Shown here: in pieces, positions 1-60,053 of the stretch | How positions within the stretch are numbered: position 1 is the first letter of the stretch | Layout of the letters: each line of letters starts with the position of its first letter | From: Wickerhamiella versatilis | Taxonomy: Eukaryota | DNA: 64,000 nt | Direction of reading: 5' to 3' | NCBI GenBank assembly: GCA_030867685.1 | Contig: JAQOWU010000008.1 | Span: 1-64,000, forward strand | Notes under the pieces: generated by a model | Database searches by the model: none | Told to the model about the DNA's origin: nothing | The model's input: the letters and a program-made list of their open reading frames with translations, nothing else | Program-made: the position numbers and the translations under genes

Positions 1-1061
1 CCCTGTCTCGCAGGTAGGCATGCGTATAAGTGAACAGAGCCATATATAACCAGCACAATAATAGTTGACAAGTAGACAAAGTATGTCAAGCTCTTGTCTT
101 CCATGAGATATTTCAGGCCGATAAAGTGATTTACAGTTATTTCTGGATATTTTCCAGAGATTTTTTCTAGGGATTGAGACTCATCGCGCCAAGCGCTCAA
201 AAAATTGAATGTAAACATGGTTGTAACACATATGATAATGGAATATAGCAGTGAATTACGATAATAAACACCACACATGAGTGGGTCATTGTGCCATGAA
301 AACCAATACCATGGTCTATAATTATAATCACCATGTAATCCATCTTTAAGTGGTGAAGTAGTGATAACAATACATGACCAGAAGAAATTGGATATATTGA
401 GTAGCATATCGAATTTGCTGGCTGTTATGTCTTGGAAACCAATCGCATTAAGCAGCATGACTATAACCGAAGTAGCACATAGTCCTCCTAAAGGCAGGAT
501 GTCCGCTAAGTACGTTCTGTTAAATTTCTCTTGCATCATTGAAACGACCCATAACAAACAGCACAAAAGGGTTATGATCGAGAAAATATAGCGCCAACAA
601 GACAAGTCAGCTTTCACTTCCGAAGGGAGAACGTTCAGTGTGACATAAGTTAACGCCGTGCATTCTAGCGTTTCACGTATCGCACCGGCACTACCCCCAG
701 ATATATCTATAAAAATAATAGTAGACGCGTACCCACATAATTGCATAGCGCAGAGCAGAAGCAAATTTACGAGAGGTGGCATGTCGCTGCCAAATATAAC
801 CAGTATTGCAGATAAAATACAGAAAGAAACTTGTAAAACTGTCAATAAGGAAAATACAATGGGACCCACTCGTAAAAAGAAACCTTTCCACCCGTAGTTT
901 ATCCATTTCCCTGTATAATGACCATCGGTGAGAGATCCTTGGTCATTGGTGAAAAGATGCTTGAATATCATCATTAAATAGAGCAACATGTAGAAAGATC
1001 GATCGCCTTGCTTAACCCATGCATAAATGCTTGTGGCCACAATTGACAAGCCCTCATACAT
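1..1061 (-). CDS. Orphan multi-pass membrane protein, partial (runs off the left edge; missing from the ORF track)
   Basis: Manual translation from ATG at 1061 (MYEGLSIVATSIYAWVKQGDRSFYMLLYLMMIFKHLF...) stays open for 353 codons to the window edge. It has many hydrophobic segments and no recognisable family motif. Confidence 0.6.
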   Translation of the reverse strand, partial: MYEGLSIVATSIYAWVKQGDRSFYMLLYLMMIFKHLFTNDQGSLTDGHYTGKWINYGWKGFFLRVGPIVFSLLTVLQVSFCILSAILVIFGSDMPPLVNLLLLCAMQLCGYASTIIFIDISGGSAGAIRETLECTALTYVTLNVLPSEVKADLSCWRYIFSIITLLCCLLWVVSMMQEKFNRTYLADILPLGGLCATSVIVMLLNAIGFQDITASKFDMLLNISNFFWSCIVITTSPLKDGLHGDYNYRPWYWFSWHNDPLMCGVYYRNSLLYSIIICVTTMFTFNFLSAWRDESQSLEKISGKYPEITVNHFIGLKYLMEDKSLTYFVYLSTIIVLVIYGSVHLYACLPARQ

Positions 1062-1482
1062 TGTTTAGGTTGTTCAAGACAAAGAAACAAAATGAGACGT
1101 AATGTAGCTGAGTAAGTAAGGAACGAAGTTCTCACTTATTAATATTGCAAGATGCAGTAATCTCGCATATCCCGTGGTCATGTTGCACGGTTTGAAAAAA
1201 TTCAGATCGCCTCGAATTGGTCAAGGTCAAAAACTTATAAGATAGGACTAAGTACTAAAAGATTAATTGGTCGCTTTTTAGTGGGATCCGTGTACTTCTA
1301 TGGACTTTTAAGAATCAACCGGCGTCGCAGGAATGGAAATTATGACAAAGCCACATGGGGAAGTCTGGGGTATGATGAAAAATGTGAAGCGGGTGATCTT
1401 AATCCATCATTCATTTATAATATATAGGCTGAAGAGATTTATATTGCCGACACAATCTCAAAGCATGCCAAGATGTTGTCGA

Positions 1483-1691
1483 CTATTCGTGGGGAATGCA
1501 GGCGTGGCATTGCGTAATACGTCATATATGTAAGCAACCGAAGCATGGCGCTAAAAGGGCAATACGAAGACTGTTCGTGATAGGGAACAGTGAATGTGTA
1601 TCCTTTATTTATAGAGAACACAACGTACGTACGGTATAACTTGACATTGATCTCAGGTGGGCTATCTTGCATTGTCCAACCAGTTTCAGGT
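1483..1691 (+). repeat. Dispersed repeat family A, copy 1 (about 200 bp, ending in a 41-bp unit at 1651-1691)
   Basis: Exact 25-bp match CTATTCGTGGGGAATGCAGGCGTGG with 12416-12440, patchy similarity downstream, then a 41-bp unit about 170 bp later in both copies. Confidence 0.8.
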
Positions 1692-1736
1692 TGTTATTAA
1701 TAATAAATATTAGGTGTTCGAGCGGGATTTGGTCAG

Positions 1737-2864
1737 ATGTCTGTGACTGGTGAATCGGACAAATGGGTATTCTCATGGTCTAACCAGCATCAGAGAACAG
1801 ACGAGGAGTGTCTACTACAGCTTACTCCTATGGCTACAATCGGTATCGTGTCCTTATTTTCAGGGATGCTCGTGCTTCTCCTTATATATATACATGAACG
1901 AAGTGGGTTTAACGACCCAGTGGCCTTCAAGAATGGATTTTTGCGGATATTAGATATTCGCTGCCAACCTGTTGACCATTTTCAAGCATTGTTCGCATCT
2001 GCAGTAGGAATTGGATCATGTAACTTGTTTACTGAATTATTATCTCCGGTAAAAGCATGGTTGGGGTTTTGGATTGATCACCAAAGATCACTAACTATCT
2101 CCATACTACTTTATTTGGCTTTAATATCTTTACACTTGATTACCTTTATCTCCAGGACGGCTATCATCCCAGCTGTATTAACACTTGTCTACAAGGCATC
2201 TGGAGGGGAAGGGCATCGCAACATCATTCTGGGAACCTTTGTAGTGAATGTTCTACTTCATATACTTTCAATATATTTTTCGAATGCTGAAATGAGAATA
2301 CCTACGGTATTTACAGTACTGATTAAAACGGTATCAATCCTTTCTTTAGCTGGTTTTTCGCTTTTGATACAAATGCCTATTGCTTTACGGGTAGCTAGGT
2401 TGCAAGTCAATACTACTAAACCATCGGTTACAAGCAAGAAGAAAACTATAATCATGCCGCTGTTAAAGGAAAAGCCAGTTGTCCTGGTTACTCTTGTCGT
2501 ATGCTTCTTCAATCAAGTTATTCGAACTGAGACATGTATTTCACACCTACTTGCTTCATGTACAAGCTGGATTCACATAGCTGCTTGTGGAATACTCGGA
2601 ATCCTTGGTGCAAAACATGGTATTTCTACTAGCGGTTTCCACTGGCATTGGCGGGCTTACTTGACCCCATTTATCTCGGTATTCGTTGTCAAAGTAATCC
2701 TTGCAAGTATAACTACGATGGCTGGTAAAATACCATCAAAACAGCAGTTAGATATGGCTATAACTGACATTGCAACTGGAGGTTCCTGCGGAGTCATATT
2801 CACTTATAGCTATTTCTTATTTGCGGAGCACTATGCAATACCAAGGGGATTTTGGGCTAATTGA
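1737..2864 (+). CDS. Orphan multi-pass membrane protein (375 aa)
   Basis: Long ATG-initiated ORF with many hydrophobic stretches and no recognisable motif. Confidence 0.6.
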   Translation: MSVTGESDKWVFSWSNQHQRTDEECLLQLTPMATIGIVSLFSGMLVLLLIYIHERSGFNDPVAFKNGFLRILDIRCQPVDHFQALFASAVGIGSCNLFTELLSPVKAWLGFWIDHQRSLTISILLYLALISLHLITFISRTAIIPAVLTLVYKASGGEGHRNIILGTFVVNVLLHILSIYFSNAEMRIPTVFTVLIKTVSILSLAGFSLLIQMPIALRVARLQVNTTKPSVTSKKKTIIMPLLKEKPVVLVTLVVCFFNQVIRTETCISHLLASCTSWIHIAACGILGILGAKHGISTSGFHWHWRAYLTPFISVFVVKVILASITTMAGKIPSKQQLDMAITDIATGGSCGVIFTYSYFLFAEHYAIPRGFWAN

Positions 2865-3141
2865 GACCTAATTCAATCTAGTCTATAGCAACCTTCTAAT
2901 GAGATTTAAGCTTCGTAAGACATATTAAATCTGATCCTATTGTTTCCATCTCGCCCAGTAAAGTATGTTTTCACTGGCAGTTCAGTTAAACTAGATGTAT
3001 ATGGTTCTAGGTGAAGAACGCTTAGCATTGCTTTTGAAACTGATTTATTACGGAATTAGCTTATACACCAGTGCAAGTGCGCATATTTATTCTGAAATGA
3101 TCTATGAATGCAAAGAAAAGTTGAGACATATCCTGTTATAT

Positions 3142-3635
3142 AGTGGGCTATCTTGCATTGTCCAACCGTCTCAGTAGTGAAGTGGGCTATCTTGCATTGT
3201 CCAACCAGTCTCAGGTAGTGAAGTGGGCTATCTTGCATTGTCCAACCAGTCTCAGGTAGTGAAGTGGGCTATCTTGCATTGTCCAACCAGTCTCAGGTAG
3301 TGAAGTGGGCTATCTTGCATTGTCCAACCAGTCTCAGGTAGTGAAGTGGGCTATCTTGCATTGTCCAACCAGTCTCAGGTAGTGAAGTGGGCTATCTTGC
3401 ATTGTCCAACCAGTCTCAGGTAGTTAGTGAAGTGGGCTATCTTGCATTGTCCAACCAGTCTCAGGTAGTGAAGTGGGCTATCTTGCATTGTCCAACCAGT
3501 CTCAGGTAGTGAAGTGGGCTATCTTGCATTGTCCAACCAGTCTCAGGTAGTGAAGTGGGCTATCTTGCATTGTCCAACCAGTCTCAGGTAGTGAAGTGGG
3601 CTATCTTGCATTGTCCAACCAGTCTCAGGTAGTGA
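3142..3635 (+). repeat. Tandem array of 12 x 41-bp unit AGTGGGCTATCTTGCATTGTCCAACCAGTCTCAGGTAGTGA (candidate interstitial telomeric array)
   Basis: Counted directly: 10 perfect 41-bp copies, a first copy of 39 bp (two 1-bp deletions), and a 7th copy of 45 bp (TAGT duplication). No spacers. Confidence 0.97.
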
Positions 3636-4192
3636 GAGAACACCGAGAATCATTATTCACTGAGTTACCTGCACCACTGGATTTCGCCATGAAAAATGGC
3701 TCGATAGGAGCTTTGGGGAAAATATTTTTTCGTTTTCAAAATCCTTGGTGGATAGAAGACCATCGCTTCCTTGTGATTGACCCCAATGGTGGATGTCCAG
3801 TAGCTTTTACTAATGCTTATAAGTTCAAAGGTGTTCCAGCGCTTGTAGCATTAGTTGCTCCACCGTTAACATATATGATCGAGGATAACCCTGATGAAGC
3901 CTTCCAGTTATTAAAGAAGTATTTGGAAGCTCTTCGAGTGGATGTTACACAGCCAATTCCGAACCCTAAACATATCGCTGTTACAGATTGGACTCTGAAT
4001 GAGTATTTTCTCGGGAGTTATTCTGGTATTGAAGTGGGACAATGCGCGGACGATTTGGTTACACCTTTTGAAGACGGAGCAGGTTCTATCAGGTTCGCAG
4101 GCGAACACACGACTTTAGAGGGTGTTGGTTGTATGCACGGTGCCTTCATATCAGGATAGCGAGAGGCAAATTTTATCTTGAATAGCATGTAA
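3636..4192 (+). pseudogene. C-terminal fragment of a flavin amine/polyamine oxidase (Fms1-like)
   Basis: Contains GALGKIFFRFQNPWW, VTDWTLNEYFLGSYS and FAGEHT...GCMHGAFISG*REA. The N-terminal FAD-binding half is replaced by the repeat array. An in-frame TAG at 4157-4159 falls inside the HGAxxSGxREA motif, and the frame continues to TAA at 4190-4192. Confidence 0.85.
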
Positions 4193-4785: not shown

Positions 4786-5065
4786 CACTCGGAACTGGAG
4801 CACGAAGTCGCTAATGACTAAATTCAAGAGCTTTGATGGCATCTGAGATTGTCCAATTCATGTGGAGTTAGAATAGTTAGAATACCTTACTCAATAGAAC
4901 TTGACATTGTTTCAGGGCTGAACACATGCTTTTTTCTCATGGAAATCCCTTAGATGGTATATTCCTTATACATAAATATTCATCTCATAAGACCATAAAT
5001 GCACAATATTACTGTGGAATATCTTGCATTTTCCAACCAGTCTCAGGTAGTGAAGTGGGCTTTCT
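4786..5065 (+). repeat. Dispersed repeat family B, copy 1 (ending in a 41-bp unit at 5014-5065)
   Basis: Shares CACTCGGAACTGGAGCAC, GAGATTGTCCAA and AAATATTCAT..ATAAGACCAT..TACTGTGG with 59848-60053. Confidence 0.8.
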
Positions 5066-5524: not shown

Positions 5525-7514
5525 TCAACACCAAAATCTATATATACGGTACAGAAGACCTTTGGACCTGACGTACTCAGCATCGTCAATTATTTGCTGC
5601 TTGGTTTGCTCTAGATCAATATCCCTCAAACCCGTGGTTAGATCAATTTTTGTCGACTTAATGTATGGGCTCCAATCTTTATAATGTACTTTACCAAAGA
5701 GATAGAATGCAAGTACTACTGGTAGAGATAAGTAGCCGCCCTTAAAAAAAACTTTCAGCATCTGCAGATTCCCCCATAGGCCACATAGAGGTCCACCAGT
5801 CCACAATAAGAATAAATACACTAATGCCAAATCCGACTAATGACCCCCATATACCTGTACCCGCTTTCCAAGCAAGCTCGTCTAGTGAATGCCCCTGGGC
5901 TTTCATTGCCACACGGAACCTGACATGAGCTAGGCATATTGAGCCCCATGTAAATATTTGAGCAAGGCCACTAAACGCTAGCATCCAATCAAAAACATCG
6001 GAATACTTATCGGATGCCACGAGGAAACATAGAAGACCAAAGGTCATCGAGAGTGCGACGGCAACCAACGGTCGACCCTCACGATCGATGTAAGAGACAA
6101 ATTGAGGGAAGGGTGTCATACCCTCGGTTGCAAGAGCGGTTAAAGTCCGTGTACATCCATATACCGCGGCATTTGCAACAGAAAGTAGAGCGAGGAGAAT
6201 CACTGTGTTAAAAACGCTGGGAAGACCGCTCACTCCCGCTCTTTGAATAGCAATCACAAATGGAGAGCCAGTGCCTCCATTTCCAGTCCCCAATCGAGGG
6301 TCATCATAGGGCAGCACACATCCAATTACGATGGTAGATACAACATAGAACAGTATGACTCGCCAAAATATCTGTTTGACAGCTGCTGGTAGTGATCTGG
6401 TAGGGTTATCGGCCTCGGCAGCCGCAAGCCCCGCGAGTTCCGTGCCAGAAAAAGCAAATGCTGCATTTACTAACACAGAAAACACGCCCTTGACCGAGTT
6501 AGCAAATGCACCAGGGTCATGCCAATATCTACCACCAATATAGCCCGTTCCATCTATAGGATATTTGTAACCTGGTGCAGGAAGTTGATACCAATACTGA
6601 CCAAGAGCATATTTAGAGTAAAAATTTGTCCCATTAGGATTTATTCCATTCATGTACCAACAGGGTTGACTTGTATTTACGGAGCCGTTGGCAAAGAGAT
6701 GCCCACTGGATACCAGAACACTATCACTAGTATCTGGAAGATATTGGCAGTGTGGTTTCCCATCCTGTGTCCATCCAGGAACACCTGGGGTTCCACCAGC
6801 AGCCTGAATAATTCCAAAGATGCAGAATCCCACAACAGCCATTACTTTAATAATACTGAGGATGAACTCGGCCTCTCCGTATCCTCGAACCCCAAATACA
6901 TTTATCATGAGGATGAGTGACCAGAACAGAGCCACCCAGCCTGATGCATTTTGCCTTAGCACTGCGCCATTATTGTCGGATTGCCAATAGCTAATAGTCA
7001 TAGCGGTACCAATTAGCTCTAAGGGGACGGTGACAAGTTGGCTTAACGCATAGTTCCAGCCCATAGCGAAGCCCCATGATTTATCAATGAACCGTGATGA
7101 AAAAATGGAGAATGCACCACTCACGGGGTAACGGACCGCTAGTTCTCCTAAGGCATGCATAGTGCAAAATAAAAGTATTCCCATGACACTAAAACCGATC
7201 ACGACTGCGGCTGGGCCTCCTGTTTGATAATTATTTGCCGAGCCGATGAATAGACCGCTACCAATACTGCCGCCAATAGCAATCATCTGCAAATGTCGAT
7301 TCTTCAATCTCCGTTTGAGAGGGGATCGAGCAATTAGGATAGCGTTGATCTCATCCGGTTTCATACCAGTAGTGTCAACATCATTTATGTTGGCACGTTT
7401 GAAACCGCTGATTAGATTCTGTAGCCATCCCGCTTCAACCACAGTTGTAGTCCCTTCGTCCCAGTGGGTATCTTTCTGCAGACGATGCGACATATCCTTC
7501 TCAGTGACGCTCAT
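5525..7514 (-). CDS. General amino acid permease (APC/YAT family, Gap1-like) with an apparent +1 frameshift in an 8-nt homopolymer near 5744-5751
   Basis: Motifs LKNRHLQMIAIGGSIGSGL, GYGEAEF and FAFSGTELAG. The C-terminus, ending in the family FWC motif, lies in the overlapping ORF 5525-5830. Removing one T gives ESFFKGGY. Likely start MSVTEK at 7514. Confidence 0.9.
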
Positions 7515-8106: not shown

Positions 8107-9225
8107 ATGCAAACATATCGGCAGCTGAATCCTCCTATTTACAGAGCTTCAACGATACTCTTTGACACTGTGGATCAGTTCCTCGCACGGTCAAACTATT
8201 TGTATGACGGTTACACGTATGGAGTCGGTGGTACCCCAACCATGCGAGAATTGGAGACAGTAGTTGCTGATATTGAAGGGGGTACCAGGTCGCTAGTGGT
8301 GCCATCAGGCTTGGCAGCTCTCACTCACTCACTTTTGGCATTCTGCAAAGCCGGAGATCACGTACTCGTTGTGGACTGTACATACAGTGGAAACAGAGAC
8401 TTTTGTCAAACTACTTTATCAGATATAAATATTGATGTGGAATTAATCCCTTCTTCGGCCAATACTATTGCTTCCAGTCTACGTCCAGAAACTCGTCTGG
8501 TGGTTTTAGAGTCACCTGGTTATTATACTATGGAAATTCAGGATATAGATTCAATCACCAGGGAAGCACACAACGCAGGCGCATTAGTATTGATTGACAA
8601 TAGTTGGGGATTTGGATTCTCTAAAATGTTTGAGCACGGAGTCGATATTAGTTGTGTTGCGCTGTCAAAATACGCTAGCGGAGCAGGAGACCTTTGCTTA
8701 GGTGCGATTACAGTGAAAGACGAAGGCTTGTTCAAATCACTGAAACGTTTTCTATATAATATCGGTGCAGCTGTTTCGTCTGAAGATGCTTACCTCGTTT
8801 TGAGAAGCTTACCCTCCTTGCAAACTCGGGTGCATGAGCACGCTCGTCGGGCCCAAGAAGTATCAAAATACCTTGCAGCACTTCCTGGAGTCGAAGTGGT
8901 GTTAAATCCAGTAATTCCTAGTGCGCCTTACCACGAGCGCTTTAAGAAATACTTCAGCTCAGGAAATGGTCTCTTCTCTGTGAAGTTTAAGGATTGCTCC
9001 CTGAGTAACCTGCGCAAGATGATTGATAGCTTCAGCCTTATCCGCATAGGTGCAAGCTGGGGGAGTGCACATAGTCTGGTTTCGATTACTCGCCCAGCTT
9101 CCAGTCGAACAATCGATGAGCATCCACAGGACAATTATTTAGTTAGATTCCACATTGGCCTTGAAAACTTCCAATGCATAATGGAAGACATAAAGAAAGG
9201 TATCAAACTGCTAAATCAAGGGTAG
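8107..9225 (+). CDS. metC: Cystathionine beta-lyase / cysteine-S-conjugate lyase, bacterial MetC type (Irc7-like)
   Basis: NPPIYRASTILF, GTPTMRELE, LESPG, IDNSW, PLP lysine in ALSKY, IGASWG, VRFHIGLE. Confidence 0.85.
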   Translation: MQTYRQLNPPIYRASTILFDTVDQFLARSNYLYDGYTYGVGGTPTMRELETVVADIEGGTRSLVVPSGLAALTHSLLAFCKAGDHVLVVDCTYSGNRDFCQTTLSDINIDVELIPSSANTIASSLRPETRLVVLESPGYYTMEIQDIDSITREAHNAGALVLIDNSWGFGFSKMFEHGVDISCVALSKYASGAGDLCLGAITVKDEGLFKSLKRFLYNIGAAVSSEDAYLVLRSLPSLQTRVHEHARRAQEVSKYLAALPGVEVVLNPVIPSAPYHERFKKYFSSGNGLFSVKFKDCSLSNLRKMIDSFSLIRIGASWGSAHSLVSITRPASSRTIDEHPQDNYLVRFHIGLENFQCIMEDIKKGIKLLNQG

Positions 9226-11923: not shown

Positions 11924-11952
11924 AGTAGGCTATCTTGCATTGTCCAACCAGT
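11924..11952 (+). repeat. Partial 41-bp unit
   Basis: AGTAGGCTATCTTGCATTGTCCAACCAGT (28/29). Confidence 0.9.
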
Positions 11953-12415: not shown

Positions 12416-12670
12416 CTATTCGTGGGGAATGCAGGCGTGGAATTGCGTCATATTTCATAACAGTAAGCAATTGGTGGCGCATAGTATAACACAAGGGCTA
12501 TTCGTGAGACCGGTAAATACGTATAATCTAATCGCGGAGAACATTAAGCGAATCATGTGCAATGTAAATTGATGTTAATCTTAAGTGGGCTTTCTTGTAT
12601 TGTCCAACCAGTCTCAGTATTGAAGTGACCAGTAGTATAAATTCTGAACCATCATCCTTATAGTGGGCTA
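12416..12670 (+). repeat. Dispersed repeat family A, copy 2, with a 41-bp unit at 12583-12627 and a stub at 12662-12670
   Basis: Match to 1483-1691; unit reads AAGTGGGCTTTCTTGTATTGTCCAACCAGTCTCAGTATTGAAGTG. Confidence 0.8.
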
Positions 12671-13952: not shown

Positions 13953-13969
13953 TGCAAGATAGCCCACTT
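13953..13969 (-). repeat. Short relic of the 41-bp unit (inverted)
   Basis: TGCAAGATAGCCCACTT is the exact reverse complement of AAGTGGGCTATCTTGCA. Confidence 0.8.
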
Positions 13970-27577: not shown

Positions 27578-27615
27578 AGTGGGCTATCTTGCATTGTCCA
27601 ACCAGTCTCAGGTAG
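27578..27615 (+). repeat. Perfect partial 41-bp unit (38 bp)
   Basis: AGTGGGCTATCTTGCATTGTCCAACCAGTCTCAGGTAG. Confidence 0.95.
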
Positions 27616-29828: not shown

Positions 29829-29863
29829 AAGTGGGCTATCTTGCCTTGTCCAACCGGTCGCAG
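29829..29863 (+). repeat. Partial 41-bp unit
   Basis: AAGTGGGCTATCTTGCCTTGTCCAACCGGTCGCAG. Confidence 0.9.
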
Positions 29864-29940: not shown

Positions 29941-30073
29941 CTTTACATTCCCATACGCGTGTGAAGATGACATAGCACATCATACTTTACATTCCCAAAC
30001 GCATGCGAAGATGACATAGCAGAACATCATACTTTACATTCCCAAACGCATGTGAAGATGACATAGTACATTA
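29941..30073 (+). repeat. Three tandem copies of a 44-47 bp unit
   Basis: CTTTACATTCCCAAACGCATGTGAAGATGACATAGCACATCATA-like unit starting at 29941, 29985 and 30032. Confidence 0.9.
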
Positions 30074-33452: not shown

Positions 33453-33478
33453 TGCAAGATAGCCCATTTCACTTCCTG
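33453..33478 (-). repeat. Relic of the 41-bp unit (inverted)
   Basis: Reverse complement CAGGAAGTGAAATGGGCTATCTTGCA versus CAGGTAGTGAAGTGGGCTATCTTGCA (24/26). Confidence 0.85.
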
Positions 33479-33797: not shown

Positions 33798-34742
33798 ATG
33801 TCTTCTGACTCTCACATCGAAGCCCTGAGAAAGTTTAATCGCTTCTTCACCTTCCATATCGATGCTTTAAATGAAAAATTCTTGGGATCCGACTTGAATC
33901 TATCTGAAGGGCGTGTGCTCTATGAAATTGGCAAACAAGAGCCTGTAACTGCCACCCATATCCAGAAAACTCTGAATCTCGACCGTGGTTATCTTAGTAG
34001 GATTCTCTCCCGCTTTCAGAAATATGGCTGGATCACTCGTGATGCGAATGAGAAGGACACTCGTGTTCATCCTATCTCTCTCACCACCGAAGGCCGCAAA
34101 GTGTACCACGAACAAAACAAAAAGCAGCATGACATCGTTTCTGATAACCTATCAAAGCTTGATACAGTGCAGCAGAACGACCTTGTAGAAGCACTGACAA
34201 CAGCTCGACTTCTTCTTGAGATATGTGAAGGTCAGGAGCCGACCTCGACTTATAGCATACGTTCTTTCCGCCCCGGTGAAGTGAGCTATATTGTGTCACG
34301 GCAGTCTAAATTGTACGAGTCCTCTAATGGATGGGGTGCGGGGATCGAACTATTGGACACCGCACAGGCTGCGACTTTCCTGCGTCAGTTGAATCGCGAT
34401 CGTGAAGACTGTTTTGTGGCAGAGATAGAAGGGATCATTGCCGGCGCCATATTCATCACCGATGAAGAAAGTGTAAGCCATGGTACAGCCCGAATCCGTA
34501 TGTTCTATGTGGAACCTCTCGCCAGACGACGCGGTATAGGTGATGCCCTGGTGCAACGGTGTATCGATTTTGCAACTGACAGAGGCTTCAGAGAAATTAT
34601 CCTCTGGACCCAGGCTGTACAAAAAGCCGCTCGAAGACTTTATGCGCGCCACGGGTTTGAAGTCACCAAGCAGTTTGTGCACGAGGAATTTGGAACGCCG
34701 GTGGAAGGAGAAATGTGGCGTGCAACATTGAATTCGAAGTAA
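33798..34742 (+). CDS. Bifunctional MarR-type winged-HTH / GNAT acetyltransferase, bacterial type
   Basis: LRKFNRFFT, LNLSEGRVLYEI, LDRGYLSRIL, DTRVHPISLTTEG (MarR part); FYVEPLARRRGIGDALV and AARRLYARHGF (GNAT motifs). Confidence 0.92.
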   Translation: MSSDSHIEALRKFNRFFTFHIDALNEKFLGSDLNLSEGRVLYEIGKQEPVTATHIQKTLNLDRGYLSRILSRFQKYGWITRDANEKDTRVHPISLTTEGRKVYHEQNKKQHDIVSDNLSKLDTVQQNDLVEALTTARLLLEICEGQEPTSTYSIRSFRPGEVSYIVSRQSKLYESSNGWGAGIELLDTAQAATFLRQLNRDREDCFVAEIEGIIAGAIFITDEESVSHGTARIRMFYVEPLARRRGIGDALVQRCIDFATDRGFREIILWTQAVQKAARRLYARHGFEVTKQFVHEEFGTPVEGEMWRATLNSK

Positions 34743-40630: not shown

Positions 40631-43600
40631 CTAGATAAGAGCTGCGATAGCGAGACCAGCTACAGCAAGCAAACCCGCAGGTTTTAGCGCACTTCCTGAG
40701 TCTTTAGTCGAGGCAGCAGAAGTTTTATCTGTCCCATTCTTCACAGAACTCGAACTCGATAGCGTAGGTGCCGCGCGGGCCTTTAATGTCATTGTACCTG
40801 CGTGCAGATAAGATGTAGCTTGGGCCCTACCGGTTGCTGTGATCGTTCCTGTGATGAGAGAGCTTTCTGAGCAGGGGACCGAGAACACAGATGTCCATGA
40901 GGATTGAGAGCAAGTACGTGGAGTCGAGTTACAGGCAGACAACTTGGAAACATTGACAGCGTCTTTGTTTATATCCTTTCCAATTGAGTTGACAAGGGAA
41001 TTGAACACAAAGATGTAGCCATTGACACTCGATACCTCAGCACAGTCAATCAAACATGGCTGGTTTTCTAGCTTGGAGTCCAAACTCTTCATCAGCGATG
41101 AGAGCTTCGAGTTAACGTCATTGAATTCGGAAAAGCAAGTAGGACATTGTTCAAAACTATAATGTACCTGGCTTTGGGTCATAAGCTCAAGGTACGATCC
41201 GAAAATCACGCCTATGTAGTGGAGCAAATCCTGACTGTCATCACTCTTGAAACAGCTTACTGAAGAAACCAAAGAGTCCACATCGGAGATTTCCCCTGAA
41301 ATAGTTGACAAAAGCTGGGATATTTGGTCAGGACCGACTCCAGATAAAATTGCGCCCTGGAGCTTGGAGTTAGCTCTATTAAGCTTGTCTAATACAGAAT
41401 CTGGAAGATCCGATGAACAGCTACCACCAGCCGGTTCACTTCCTACCATGGTACAGTAGCAACTGCCTGAGGAAGTAAGTATAGAGGAGGAGGACGATCT
41501 AACAGGCCTTGATGTAGATGGGAAGTGTTCTGAGGTTGAGGATATTTCAGGTCCTGATGTAGATGGAGACACAGACGATCGACTGGGTTCTGGGTATTTC
41601 GACGATCCACTGTGTCCTGGAGTAGACGACTTAGCATTTCCTGAGGTAGACGGAGATACAGACGATCCACTGTGTCCTGGAGTAGACGACTTAGCAGTTC
41701 CTGAGGTAGATGGATATACAGAAGATCCGCTATGTCCTGGAATAGATGGTTTACCAGTTCCTGAGGTAGATGGAGAGACAGAAGATCCGCTATGTCCTTG
41801 GGTGGACGGTTTACCAGTTCCTGAGGTAGACGGAGACACAGACGATCGACTGGGTCCTGGGTATTTCGACGATCCGCTATGTCCTGGAGTAGATGGTTTA
41901 CCAGTTCCTGAGGTAGATGGAGATACAGATGATCTGACAGAGACAATCGAAGGGATATTTGTGGGCACAGAATCCGTAGGTCTACTCTTGCTTGACAATG
42001 TTATGACTAAGGTGCTAGTCTGTGAAGACGCACAAGGGAAGGGTATAATAGTTGTAACAGTTGATGCTTTGCACTTTGTCTTACCATCACTACAAACAGT
42101 AAATGGTGTAATAGCATCCACAGACATATCGAATATCGAGCCGAGCTGCTTGACAGTTGCTTCAAGGTGGCTGAGATCGGCGTTCACCTTACCGACTGCA
42201 TCACAGTCAACACAACACGGGTTCTGGGACAACCAGTCATTATAATTGGATACGAGCTTCCCAAGCTGCTGATCTGCGGAGTTGATTGTAGGCATCCATG
42301 TCTTGCACGAGTCAATCTCCTCAGAAGGAAGACTTGCTAGCTCGTCAAGTATCTTTGTGTACCATAAAATTAACTTGGCAAAATCACCAAGCAGGTAGTT
42401 GGACGCTTCTGCGCTGAGACAATCGATATCTTGCTTCACCTTTTGGAAATTGTCGATTCCCGACGCAACCTCAGAAACCTGTTTGGCTAAAGTCTGGTTG
42501 CTCACTCCTGCAGCAGCAGCATCCTGTAACAAGTTTTGGGTATCAGTCAACAGTTTAGTAGCAGTTTCACTAAGGCCCGAGGTACACTGACATACATCAC
42601 CCGACGAAACCACTTCAGTAGAATAGCATGTTACATTTGCAGAGGCAGCAGCACTAAAATTGGGTGCTTCCGAAGATACAGAGGTACTATGTGTGCTGGA
42701 AACTGTGGGAGGCGTACTAGTCCGCTGCAACGTACTACTTTCTCGCTTTGGTGTGGGAGTTTTGACAGTGACGTCAGGTACTGAATAAATTTGGGAACCG
42801 ATGGTGTGAATATCAGCAGTACTGACTGTGGTAGGGAACGAGCCAGTCCACTGCACAGTAGTAGTTTCTCCCTTTGGTTTGGGGGTTTTGACAGTGACGT
42901 CAGGTACTGAATAAATTTGAGAACCGATGGTGTGAACATCAGCAGTACTGACTGTGGTAGGGAATGAGCCAGTCCACTGCACCGTAGTAGTTTCTCCCTT
43001 TGGTGTGGGGGTCTCTACAGTGACTATTGGCTCGGTGAACGTCTCACCATAAGTGATAATTGTCTCCTTAGCACTTATTGTGGTAGGGAATGTACCAGTC
43101 CACGCGATTGTAGATGTTTCACCTTCAAACGTAGGGGTCTCTACAGTGACTGCTGGCTCGGTGAATATCCGATCATAAGAGCTAATTGTCTCCATACCAT
43201 TTATGGTGGTAGGGAACGTACCAGTCCACGCGATTGTAGATGTTTCACCACCTAGAGTAGGCGGCCTTATAATAATCTCACCTTGAGTTGTGTGCGGTCC
43301 TGTAGCTTCCGTGAAATATGTCGTCGTAAACGGCTCATACCAAGGTACGGTTTTAGTGGCTTCAGCGCAGCGCTCCTCGTCACTTCTAACTTGGTATATT
43401 TGTTCCAGTGGGGCATAAGTCTCACTGCCAGGGTATCGCACGCTGATATTAAGAGATGCCGTCCTCTCATAGTTGATATATACTATCTCCGTAGGATACA
43501 TCCAGCCAGCTTCCAAGTAGAATACGGCTTCACGGGCTCTGGTGTTGTCATGCTGCTCATCGTCCCCTTCACCGAACGTGTTCACTGCAATCTTAGTACC

Positions 43601-45591: not shown

Positions 45592-45711
45592 CAATTTTGT
45601 AGTGAGTGACCGCTTATTTCTTATTTCTTATTCCTTATTAGCTGGATTAATGAGAAGTTTCAGGTCAGGATGAGATCTAAGTCAGTTCCATCCAGTCTCA
45701 GGTAGCGAAGT
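45592..45711 (+). repeat. About 60-bp direct repeat, right copy (45592-45667), followed by a 41-bp unit relic (45687-45711)
   Basis: Matches 40395-40456 with an internal TTATTTC expansion, then TCCATCCAGTCTCAGGTAGCGAAGT. Confidence 0.8.
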
Positions 45712-52219: not shown

Positions 52220-52252
52220 AAGCGGGCTATCTTGCGTTGTCCAGCCAATCTC
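52220..52252 (+). repeat. 41-bp unit relic overlapping the 3' end and stop codon of the Zn2Cys6 gene
   Basis: AAGCGGGCTATCTTGCGTTGTCCAGCCAATCTC (29/33 to the consensus). Confidence 0.85.
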
Positions 52253-54191
52253 TTTGGGTCATGGGATCGAAGAGCGTGAGCAATGTTTGTCTAACAATAT
52301 TAGCCTGATCATCGGGGTTCAAAATTGGATCATTGGTGGTATCAAGTACCAGCTCGCTTGGCACGACAGGAGGTTCCTGTAGTCGTTCACTGGCACGATA
52401 GAGTGACCATAAAACCTGAATGCTTTGGCTTGCAGTATCACGATATTCGCACATTTGATCTAACGTGTCGATTGCATTCTTGACCTGTTGCTGTAGCTTT
52501 TGCCTCAGAGCAGCATCGTATCGATACGCACTAAAGAGTGATATTACTGGTATGAGGGCAGCCTGAAACATGTACCATACCCCAGGCCAACAGCTCAGTA
52601 AATGAGGGCGCCATTCGCTAGATATATCCACAATAGCCTGTGCAGCAATCTCCCGGCATACGCTTACAACGGCCTCAGAGTGATTTGTCGTCGAGCAATT
52701 CGATAGAGCGCTGCGCAACAGAAATGGCCGATAAAGAGCAATTCTAATATTGTTATACTCCCATTTTAGGGCTCGTAGAGCCATATAGATACCAAGTGGT
52801 GCCCCTACTGGCTCATGCAGGTACAGAGGAGACTGGTTATACCAAGCTCGCAGCTCGGCGTCGAGGGATTCTGCGTCTGACTCTTTCGGAAGTCTCGTCA
52901 GCATAAACAAAGTCTCTACCCGTTCCATGATACGAGAGAGCCCTATACGGCATACCAAGACAGATGTAGGGGTAACATGTTCACCTGAATCTTCGCCTGA
53001 GATATCGTCGATGTTGCCAGGTTCCTCGATTGTGATTCCCTGTCCCGCGTACAAACTTGGCCTTCCCAGTGAAAAGCCGCCAGATACCTCTGCCGTATAT
53101 AGAGCAAACCACAAACGGCGCCGTTGTTCCTTTTGTAGCCAACTTACCTGCGATAAGGTTTTCGTTGATAACCGTCGATGCAACCCCAACCCACATGCAA
53201 TCTTAAAAGCTACCCCTGAGAGAACCATTGCAGTGTTTGGCATGTTCTTCAGATGAAGGTAGTGGCCACCTAGAAGTATTAGCGCTTGCAGAACCTGCTC
53301 ATTACCTCTCCCAAGGTCTCCAAGATAATAACGTGCTGCTCTATAGTATGGTCCCTCGTCACACGATCTTGAATCCAGAGACACCAGCTTCCCCCACATC
53401 AGAACGCTATAGAGCAAGGCGAGCCACTGTCTCTTTTGTGATTGAGTCGCATAGGCGTCCCGAAATGTTGCCTCATGCACTATAGGCACCATAGGGTGAA
53501 CATATAAGAAGTACGAATCAATCAGCAAATAGTTAGACCGTGCATACGGTGCTGGGAAATTCTGCTTCTGAAAACCACTGTAAGAGTCGCCCTCACTTGA
53601 ATATGTTTTTACTTGCTCACCTAAAGGTCGTATATCCTGACCGAGCTTGCGTAATTCAGAAAAAATAGTTGATAAGGAAGGCATACCTAGATACGAGGAG
53701 CTACTGCCCAGGCTCAATCCATTTACATCATCGGCAACACTAGCTTCTTCGGACCATGAATACCCTCTCGGACTGCTCTCAACATCAACCTCAAAGTCAG
53801 GCGGTGCAGGCGACACCTCGACATCAGCAGATCTTCGTTCCATCTCCATAGAGCTGAGATTAGCATTGAGAGTTGTAAGCAGCTGCTCCCGAGAATAGTT
53901 CACGACTTCAGTGATATCCTGTTCAGGGAACAGCTTGTGGAGAATAGCAACACACTGTGTGAGCTTAATCTCACTTTTTCTATCTATACAACGTTCAACA
54001 CATCGATAGCGTATGCAGGAGCTACATGGCCGCTGCGATGAGCAAGCAACTTTTCGTCGTTTACACTCGAGGCACGCAGTGCCCCTCGCTACCATTTGAC
54101 TAGTAGCTGGCCTCTTTCCTAAGACTTTTGATGGTAATTTTCTGCCTCGTACGAGTCGCTCGTCTTCATCTTGCTGATGAGACCCACGCAT
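52227..54191 (-). CDS. Zn(II)2Cys6 transcription factor with fungal-specific TF domain (start uncertain: 54260, 54191 or 54095)
   Basis: CLECKRRKVACSSQRPCSSCIRYRCVERC; YFLYVHPMVPIVHE, ACGLGLHR, EQRRRLWFALY. Confidence 0.9.
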   Translation of the reverse strand: MRGSHQQDEDERLVRGRKLPSKVLGKRPATSQMVARGTACLECKRRKVACSSQRPCSSCIRYRCVERCIDRKSEIKLTQCVAILHKLFPEQDITEVVNYSREQLLTTLNANLSSMEMERRSADVEVSPAPPDFEVDVESSPRGYSWSEEASVADDVNGLSLGSSSSYLGMPSLSTIFSELRKLGQDIRPLGEQVKTYSSEGDSYSGFQKQNFPAPYARSNYLLIDSYFLYVHPMVPIVHEATFRDAYATQSQKRQWLALLYSVLMWGKLVSLDSRSCDEGPYYRAARYYLGDLGRGNEQVLQALILLGGHYLHLKNMPNTAMVLSGVAFKIACGLGLHRRLSTKTLSQVSWLQKEQRRRLWFALYTAEVSGGFSLGRPSLYAGQGITIEEPGNIDDISGEDSGEHVTPTSVLVCRIGLSRIMERVETLFMLTRLPKESDAESLDAELRAWYNQSPLYLHEPVGAPLGIYMALRALKWEYNNIRIALYRPFLLRSALSNCSTTNHSEAVVSVCREIAAQAIVDISSEWRPHLLSCWPGVWYMFQAALIPVISLFSAYRYDAALRQKLQQQVKNAIDTLDQMCEYRDTASQSIQVLWSLYRASERLQEPPVVPSELVLDTTNDPILNPDDQANIVRQTLLTLFDPMTQRDWLDNAR

Positions 54192-59847: not shown

Positions 59848-60053
59848 CACTCGGAACTGGAGCACAGAGCCGCTAATGATTTGATTTAAGAGCTTGAACG
59901 GATGCCAAAAAAGATATCGGCGTCAGAGATTGTCCAAATAAATGTACACAAATATTCATATTATAAGACCATGAACTCGATAATACTGTGGGCTATCCTG
60001 CATTGTCCAACCAGTCTCAGGTGGTGAAGTGAGGAGGCGGGCTATCTCGCATT
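59848..60053 (+). repeat. Dispersed repeat family B, copy 2, with a 41-bp unit at 59988-60053
   Basis: Match to 4786-5065; unit reads GTGGGCTATCCTGCATTGTCCAACCAGTCTCAGGTGGTGAAGTG...GCGGGCTATCTCGCATT. Confidence 0.85.

What the first reader, a model, noticed from the sequence alone, without database searches (positions are those of the whole stretch)
3142..3635. Twelve-copy 41-bp perfect tandem array: candidate exceptionally long telomeric repeat unit
Seen: 10 identical 41-bp units plus two variants, with no spacers. One variant is a TAGT stutter (GGTAGTTAGTGA) right at the unit junction, where AGTG recurs (GTAGTGA-AGTGGG). This is the kind of error expected from template realignment. Knowledge: budding yeasts have long, complex telomeric units, for example 23 bp in Candida albicans and 25 bp in Kluyveromyces lactis; 41 bp is longer than any I know of. 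Inference: this is an internalised telomere. Polarity is unresolved. The degenerate first copy and the shared left flanks suggest + is the outward strand. The truncated gene on its right and the repeat-derived stop at 52227 suggest the opposite.
Basis: partly seen in the sequence, partly recalled or inferred. Interest (0 to 1): 0.8.

Follow-up and report, generated by a model that had tools for sequence, protein, structure and literature searches.

The report
41-base yeast telomere repeat, internal copy
This array is made of the chromosome-end repeat of a budding yeast, an unusually long 41-base unit that telomerase probably also pastes into broken DNA at many inner sites.

Summary
Observation confirmed. 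The 41-bp unit is this yeast's telomeric repeat. Arrays run to the last base of contigs C1 and C4 and lie near C7's left end, all in one polarity: the outward strand is the window's minus strand. An intact TERT is present. Telomerase synthesis is inferred: 56 of 110 dispersed fragments share one end, as a template boundary predicts, and one perfect 50-nt copy has an empty allele in another run, with a 7-bp duplication. That disqualifies my best telomerase-RNA candidate; the RNA gene was not found. The 3.1 kb outside the array duplicates C7's right end through a 50-bp repeat copy: real capture or misassembly, unresolved. Not a record: a putative 43-nt unit is listed for Pichia norvegensis (PMC7857110), and published Wickerhamiella versatilis telomere tract lengths fit a 41-bp period (PMC13376923), though I found no motif in print. 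The scan noted this repeat before on other DNA of this genome.

The parts
3142..3635 (-). 12-copy array of the 41-bp telomeric unit; outward (telomerase-product) strand is the minus strand
   Evidence: polarity from terminal arrays of C1 and C4
3142..3180 (.). first copy, 39 nt, two 1-nt deletions; the only two differences from C7's right end
3386..3430 (.). 45-nt copy with a 4-nt duplication; single occurrence, real variant or consensus error
   Evidence: not seen in the C1 or C4 arrays
91..3189 (.). segment identical at 3099 of 3101 columns to the right end of contig C7 (reverse complement); the match ends where C7's single 50-bp repeat copy ends
2996..3166 (.). flank plus 25 bp of repeat, with a third, 90%-identical copy at C7:2601215-2601385 that turns to unrelated DNA after the repeat piece
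3636..4159 (+). 3' remnant of a flavin amine oxidase gene, cut at the inner edge of the array; no other copy found in the genome
1657..1691 (+). dispersed repeat fragment inside the duplicated segment
4298..4349 (+). dispersed repeat fragment
5020..5065 (+). dispersed repeat fragment
11924..11952 (+). dispersed fragment starting at the anchored end
12583..12617 (+). dispersed fragment starting at the anchored end
13953..13969 (-). dispersed fragment, opposite orientation
27578..27615 (+). perfect 38-nt fragment starting at the anchored end
29829..29863 (+). dispersed fragment starting at the anchored end
33453..33478 (-). dispersed fragment, opposite orientation
45687..45711 (+). dispersed repeat fragment
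52220..52252 (+). dispersed fragment that supplies the last codons and the stop of the minus-strand ORF 52227-54191
59988..60031 (+). dispersed fragment of about one unit

Best explanation
The 41-bp unit is the telomeric repeat of a Wickerhamiella/Starmerella-clade yeast (W. versatilis or a close relative, by inference), made by telomerase from an RNA template of roughly 45-50 nt. Shown: terminal arrays, polarity, intact TERT, a shared end among dispersed fragments, one filled/empty site. Inferred: the template reads in the window's plus sense from the anchored AGTGGG end through one unit plus a short terminal repeat; telomerase extends 3' ends to that boundary, translocates and repeats. The window array is the telomere laid on the broken left arm of the largest chromosome, where it cut an amine oxidase gene (inferred). 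It sits 3.1 kb inside the contig because it is joined, through a 50-bp repeat copy, to a copy of another chromosome's subtelomere; I put a real recombination or break-induced copying event at about 55% and an assembly join at about 45%. Telomerase also patches inner breaks that are then rejoined, which leaves the dispersed fragments (inferred).
For: Arrays reach the last base of C1 (1115630-1115855) and C4 (85228-85695); C7 left has 3.4 units at 1760-1899 plus noisy units at 813-1453. Contig overlaps give three chromosomes, and 4 of their 6 ends carry an array, counting this one. TERT: 766 aa, one ORF, RBD and RT domains over Pfam cut-off, 73% identical to an unnamed relative's. 56 of 110 dispersed fragments start in 4 of 41 phases (binomial p 1e-27), against 6 of 110 for the other end; 7 of 11 in the window alone, 25 of 51 in end blocks. 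That end is the 3' end of the outward strand. At C8:309256-309305 one contig of run X19 lacks 53 bp; the filled allele is a 7-bp duplication around repeat DNA, with 3 host bases in register, the pattern described for telomerase insertions at staggered breaks (PMC7215372, passages). Published W. versatilis telomere tracts (410, 121, 329, 410, 206 bp) fit period 41 best among periods 5-60, and the same test returns 30 and 20 for two species whose listed motifs have those lengths. Ku70/Ku80-type genes are present.
Against: No telomerase RNA gene was found. Only 3 non-array sites match more than one unit perfectly: one is the polymorphic insertion, one has 76 nt before the next start codon, one folds no better than shuffles (z -0.18). 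2 of 6 ends (C7 right, C5 start) have no array in this assembly. The outward strand is not G-rich (9 G, 11 C). The empty allele rests on one contig in one run and could be a deletion between 7-bp repeats. All 3 fragments sampled inside C1 point against its terminal array. Many loci were fetched because they held a match. The species is inferred, and the published tract table gives lengths, not the motif.
Confidence: 0.85

Rival explanations
1. The unit is telomeric but kept up by recombination or circles (ALT-like); the fragments are captured pieces of telomeric DNA, not telomerase products.
For: No template-bearing RNA gene found; duplications often end at repeat fragments, so recombination acts there (12 of 33 ends against about 6% expected).
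Against: TERT is intact and conserved. Captured DNA pieces would not share one end in one phase. The known telomerase-negative yeasts lack Est2 and mostly have end-specific units (PMC13234504, abstract); here one unit serves all four ends that have arrays.
Confidence: 0.08
2. The unit is a subterminal satellite or element-derived minisatellite, and the true telomere is another, shorter repeat lost from the assembly.
For: This array lies 3.1 kb inside its contig, and C7's clean 3.4-unit array is internal too; contig ends need not be chromosome ends.
Against: Two contigs end inside the array; an independent long-read study lists tracts with a 41-bp period at 5 of 6 chromosome ends of W. versatilis; the inner junctions of the four arrays fall at different phases against unrelated DNA.
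Confidence: 0.05
3. Sub-question, position only: the window array is the true terminal telomere and bases 1-3141 are an assembly join to C7's right end through the shared 50-bp copy.
For: 0 mismatches over 3101 columns; join exactly at the 50-bp copy; array length (494 bp) like terminal arrays (468 bp at C4, a lower bound); only two full copies of the segment.
Against: An older, 10%-diverged copy of the same flank-repeat junction exists, so such switches happen in vivo; 12 of 33 duplication ends lie at repeat fragments; noisy contig ends and 1-2.5 kb contig overlaps suggest a long-read assembly, which seldom joins on 50 bp (own knowledge).
Confidence: 0.45

Closest known systems
Long telomerase-templated repeats of budding yeasts (C. 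albicans 23 nt, K. lactis 25 nt, L. kluyveri 26 nt, Tetrapisispora 25-29 nt; PMC7857110 table, PMC8211666 passages)
   Same: One complex unit in homogeneous terminal arrays, TERT present, template inferred to be one unit plus a short terminal repeat.
   Different: 41 nt, against 28-29 nt for the longest units tied to a candidate RNA in PMC8211666; outward strand not G-rich; RNA gene not identified here.
Putative telomere motifs from assemblies: Pichia norvegensis 43 nt, W. domercqiae 30 nt, S. bombicola 20 nt (PMC7857110 supplementary table)
   Same: Same kind of evidence (arrays at contig ends); the last two are in the same clade.
   Different: This unit is not in the Saccharomycotina rows I read; here the fragment-end pattern and a filled/empty site add mechanistic evidence.
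W. versatilis telomere tracts in PMC13376923, Supplementary Data 12
   Same: Tract lengths fit a 41-bp period; three chromosomes; large end domains rich in acquired genes.
   Different: The parts I could read give no motif, no unit length, and no mention of telomerase or interstitial copies; the main supplementary PDF was unreadable.
Short interstitial telomeric sequences inserted at double-strand breaks in mammals (PMC7215372, passages)
   Same: Empty and filled alleles, host bases in register at the break, target duplication, head-to-head pieces.
   Different: Here mostly one template pass or less of a long unit, at 110 sites in 397 kb sampled, so the template boundary can be read from the genome.
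Internal telomeric tracts at X-Y' junctions of S. cerevisiae (recalled, no call)
   Same: A telomeric tract with a segment shared between chromosome ends lying outside it.
   Different: The outer segment has only two full copies and its two ORFs match no Pfam family; no helicase element.

Membership tests
Telomerase-maintained telomeric repeat | Tandem arrays at two or more chromosome or contig ends | tested here: met
   C1 and C4 end inside the array; C7 left and C8 left carry near-terminal arrays
Telomerase-maintained telomeric repeat | Same strand points outward at all ends | tested here: met
   4 of 4 ends with arrays; one inverted noisy block at C7:813-1022 looks like a fold-back read
Telomerase-maintained telomeric repeat | Intact TERT | tested here: met
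   766-aa ORF with PF12009 and PF00078
Telomerase-maintained telomeric repeat | Single-copy RNA gene holding more than one unit as template | tested here: inconclusive
   3 perfect candidates; one rejected by an empty allele, two unconvincing; RF02462 search blank with no positive control
Telomerase-maintained telomeric repeat | Outward strand G-rich (usual, not universal in yeasts) | tested here: not met
   9 G, 11 C, 12 A, 9 T; several listed yeast motifs are also not G-rich
Telomerase-maintained telomeric repeat | Bal31 sensitivity and loss after TERT deletion | not testable with these tools
   bench tests
Telomerase-inserted interstitial telomeric sequence | Empty allele with host bases in register at the priming side | tested here: met
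   1 site, 1 contig of run X19; 3 bases in register, 7-bp duplication
Telomerase-inserted interstitial telomeric sequence | Product 3' ends cluster at a template boundary | tested here: met
   56 of 110 in 4 of 41 phases
Telomerase-negative (Microstromatales-type) arrays | No Est2 gene and end-specific units | tested here: not met
   TERT present, one unit at all ends with arrays
Genuine internalised telomere | Reads span the array and both flanks | not tested

The most novel reading that the evidence does not exclude
This yeast's telomerase copies a template of about 50 nt, longer than any I found tied to a candidate RNA, and acts as a routine break-patching enzyme: it leaves hundreds of one-pass scars across the chromosome-end domains, and these scars then serve as portable homology through which real telomeres and subtelomeric segments (such as window 91-3141) are captured and shuffled. 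That would give a mechanism for the gene-uptake zones of this clade.
Probability: 0.3. Interest if true: 0.82.

Novelty: new variant of a known kind. Interest (0 to 1): 0.6.

Why it matters
A telomerase that writes 41-nt units would extend the known range of template length well past the 28-29 nt units tied to a candidate RNA (PMC8211666), and makes the limits of template length and processivity testable. The dispersed fragments record where the enzyme stops in vivo and point to telomerase acting often at inner breaks in a clade reported to lack DNA-repair genes and to gather foreign genes near chromosome ends (PMC13376923, passages). The unit itself is not a length record, and a published tract table suggests software already detected it.

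Tried and rejected
C8:309256-309305 as the telomerase RNA gene: rejected; run X19 has an empty allele, and RNA run X24 covers the flanks at depth about 3-40 against about 320-460 for the neighbouring genes. C7:2634272-2634317 and C7:2636508-2636557: not excluded, but cramped or unstructured. Two single-consensus loose ends of X24 reads (158 and 48 reads) were sought in the genome with up to 3 mismatches: 0 matches each; 104 further loose-end rows were not shown. Rfam RF02462: blank, uninformative. No RNA holder was listed by the run index. JGI metagenomes: 0 matches to the unit, 0 TERT relatives. No look-alike windows in other genomes of the scan. No read-through base enrichment before the anchored end (10 C, 10 T, 8 G). 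Protein searches gave no named close relative; the clade rests on a bacterial-type EntE over cut-off, three chromosomes and the tract periods. The AGTG-realignment reading of the 4-nt stutter: not supported, as the recurrence has period 5. Literature: six searches and term look-ups in PMC12449055, PMC10100673 and PMC10767889 showed no statement of this motif; supplements of PMC12449055, the main PDF and files 10 and 13-15 of PMC13376923, and the TeloBase database itself were not seen.

Full report
Observation. Window 3142-3635 is 12 head-to-tail copies without spacers: 10 perfect 41-mers, a 39-nt first copy with two 1-nt deletions, and a 45-nt copy with a 4-nt duplication. The genome (9.88 Mb, 8 contigs; the window is the start of C8) holds 27 exact copies in this register and 0 of the reversed control: 10 here, 10 on C4, 3 on C1, 1 near C7's left end, 2 near C7's right end, 1 at C8:309 kb.

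It is the telomeric repeat. C1 ends inside an array (1115630-1115855) and so does C4 (85228-85695). C7's left end has a clean 3.4-unit array at 1760-1899 and noisy units at 813-1453, one block of them inverted like a fold-back read. Contig-end overlaps join C4, C3 and C1, and join C8 and C5, giving three chromosomes. Of six ends, four carry an array (C4, C1, C7 left, this one) and two do not (C7 right, C5 start). At right ends the unit lies on the minus strand and at left ends on the plus strand, so the strand that runs outward is the reverse complement of the window's plus strand. That strand is not G-rich (9 G, 11 C). The gene on the inner side is the last third of an amine oxidase with no second copy, as expected if the array was added at a break; that step is inference.

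Organism. A bacterial-type EntE passes its cut-off; PMC13376923 mentions a bacterial enterobactin operon in the Wickerhamiella/Starmerella clade (passage). Its Supplementary Data 12 (read whole) lists W. versatilis telomere tracts of 410, 121, 329, 410 and 206 bp at five chromosome ends. Among periods 5-60 these fit 41 best (largest deviation 2 bp; period 5 ranks second), and the same test gives 30 for W. domercqiae and 20 for S. bombicola, the lengths of their motifs in PMC7857110's table. So W. versatilis or a close relative is likely, and an independent long-read study probably detected the same unit. This is inference: no motif is given in the parts I could read.

Evidence for telomerase. 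TERT is one 766-aa ORF at C7:1.745 Mb with RBD and RT domains, 73% identical to an unnamed relative's. In 397,128 bases fetched, a scan found 126 matches of 17 nt or more; 16 in arrays or duplicated blocks were dropped, leaving 110. Thirty shuffled units gave 0 each. Of the 110, 56 begin at unit phase 41, 1, 2 or 3; only 6 end there, and the best four phases for the other end hold 16. The result holds in the window alone (7 of 11) and in end blocks (25 of 51), which matters because many other loci were fetched for holding a match. The shared end is the 3' end of the outward strand, where telomerase stops at its template boundary. Fragments mostly point like the nearest telomere (9 of 11 at C8 left, 8 of 9 at C7 left, 27 of 32 at C7 right, 4 of 5 at C8 right), but 3 of 3 inside C1 point against its terminal array. 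Two perfect 50-nt copies have identical borders, one unit plus 9 nt, and most long anchored fragments end at positions 43-50. I infer a template of about 45-50 nt.

The telomerase RNA was not found. A template must contain one of two motifs exactly; I examined the exact non-array hits of both. Only three match more than one unit perfectly. C8:309256-309305, between a glycogen phosphorylase gene and an aspartyl protease gene, looked best. Laying four runs on it rejected it: one contig of run X19 skips 53 bp, and RNA run X24 covers the flanks at depth about 3-40 against about 320-460 on the two genes. The filled allele is a 7-bp direct duplication around repeat DNA, with three host bases in register on the priming side and the far end at the anchored boundary. 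This is the pattern of telomerase insertion at a staggered break in PMC7215372 (passages). It rests on one contig, and a deletion between the 7-bp repeats is possible, but the insert is perfect while the strains differ at several per cent around it. The two C7 candidates are weak: one has 76 nt before the next start codon, the other folds like its shuffles. X24 also has 286 reads with a 41-nt go-back joint, so tandem arrays are in that RNA run; the library is unstranded and DNA carry-over is not excluded.

Why the array is 3.1 kb inside the contig. Window 91-3189 equals C7's right end at 3099 of 3101 columns; the two gaps are the deletions in the first copy, and the match ends where C7's lone 50-bp copy ends. 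Only these two full copies exist. An assembly join is possible. So is real recombination or break-induced copying from the telomere into that 50-bp copy: a third, 90%-identical copy of the same flank-repeat junction switches to unrelated DNA after the repeat piece, and 12 of 33 scorable ends of 19 duplicated segments lie at repeat fragments against about 6% expected (ends are not independent, loci are enriched for matches, and masking can force an end). I put real capture at 55%. No reads were laid on this junction.

The stutter. AGTG recurs with a period of 5, so realignment there predicts 5-nt slips, not a 4-nt duplication. The variant is absent from the C1 and C4 arrays, and 1-nt deletions occur in the C1 and C7 arrays, so consensus error is plausible. 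Three contigs of run X13 do show a 46-nt period, unverified.

Comparison with print. PMC7857110 (passages; supplementary table parts 1 and 2 of 3) gives 43 nt, putative, for Pichia norvegensis; this unit is not in those rows. PMC8211666 (passages) nt one of the longest units known and ties it to a candidate RNA. PMC13234504 (abstract, passages) describes telomerase-negative yeasts with end-specific arrays, which does not fit. PMC12983215 (passages) gives no motif in the passages shown. Six searches and term look-ups in three more papers showed no statement of this motif; unread supplements and TeloBase could hold it. Earlier notes of this scan proposed the same unit and the anchored fragments on other DNA of this genome; I retested the main points.

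Verdict. A real telomeric repeat of unusual length, very probably telomerase-made (0.85), not a record and probably already detected by software, with its RNA template still unlocated and its internal position here unresolved. New variant of a known kind; interest 0.6.

Noticed in passing
L038:6252-6304 (C8:309252-309304): Filled and empty alleles of a repeat insertion with a 7-bp duplication; the empty site itself resembles an older repeat piece in the opposite orientation.
   Followed up: partly
L038, run X24 loose ends at 6256 and 6261: Groups of 104 and 158 RNA-run reads join the repeat to unique flanks; the one sought (158 reads) is not in this assembly. Possibly transcribed chromosome ends of another strain, or the missing RNA.
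   Followed up: partly
L038, run X13 record 5: A 2101-bp contig at single-copy depth holds a perfect 49-nt match with no counterpart among the perfect matches of this assembly; a recent insertion or the RNA gene.
   Followed up: no
L038, run X13 joint 6306 to 6261: Three contigs show a 46-nt variant period of the repeat.
   Followed up: no
L034:813-1899 (C7 left end): A 3.4-unit array lies about 300 bp inside further noisy units; the outermost block is inverted.
   Followed up: partly
L044 and L085 (C7:2620076-2621992 and C8:4578095-4580001): A 1.9-kb duplication, 90% identical, with repeat fragments at both ends.
   Followed up: partly
window 8107-9225, 33798-34742; L037:3-308: Intronless genes that look bacterial: a cystathionine beta-lyase-like gene and a MarR-type regulator fused to a further domain (both below NCBIfam cut-offs); a UvrA-like start by eye at C7's right end.
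   Followed up: partly
L038:2924-5650: The glycogen phosphorylase's best named hits are Candida/Scheffersomyces-type proteins at 63-64%, with no close relative among those scored; possibly acquired.
   Followed up: no
window 29941-30071, 41574-41860, 42719-43261: Other tandem repeats: a 47-bp unit between genes, and 60-bp and 126-bp units inside a large secreted-type protein gene.
   Followed up: no
L059:274-2574: The TERT is short (766 aa) and only about 24% identical to named TERTs found; whether its structure differs to suit a long template was not examined.
   Followed up: no
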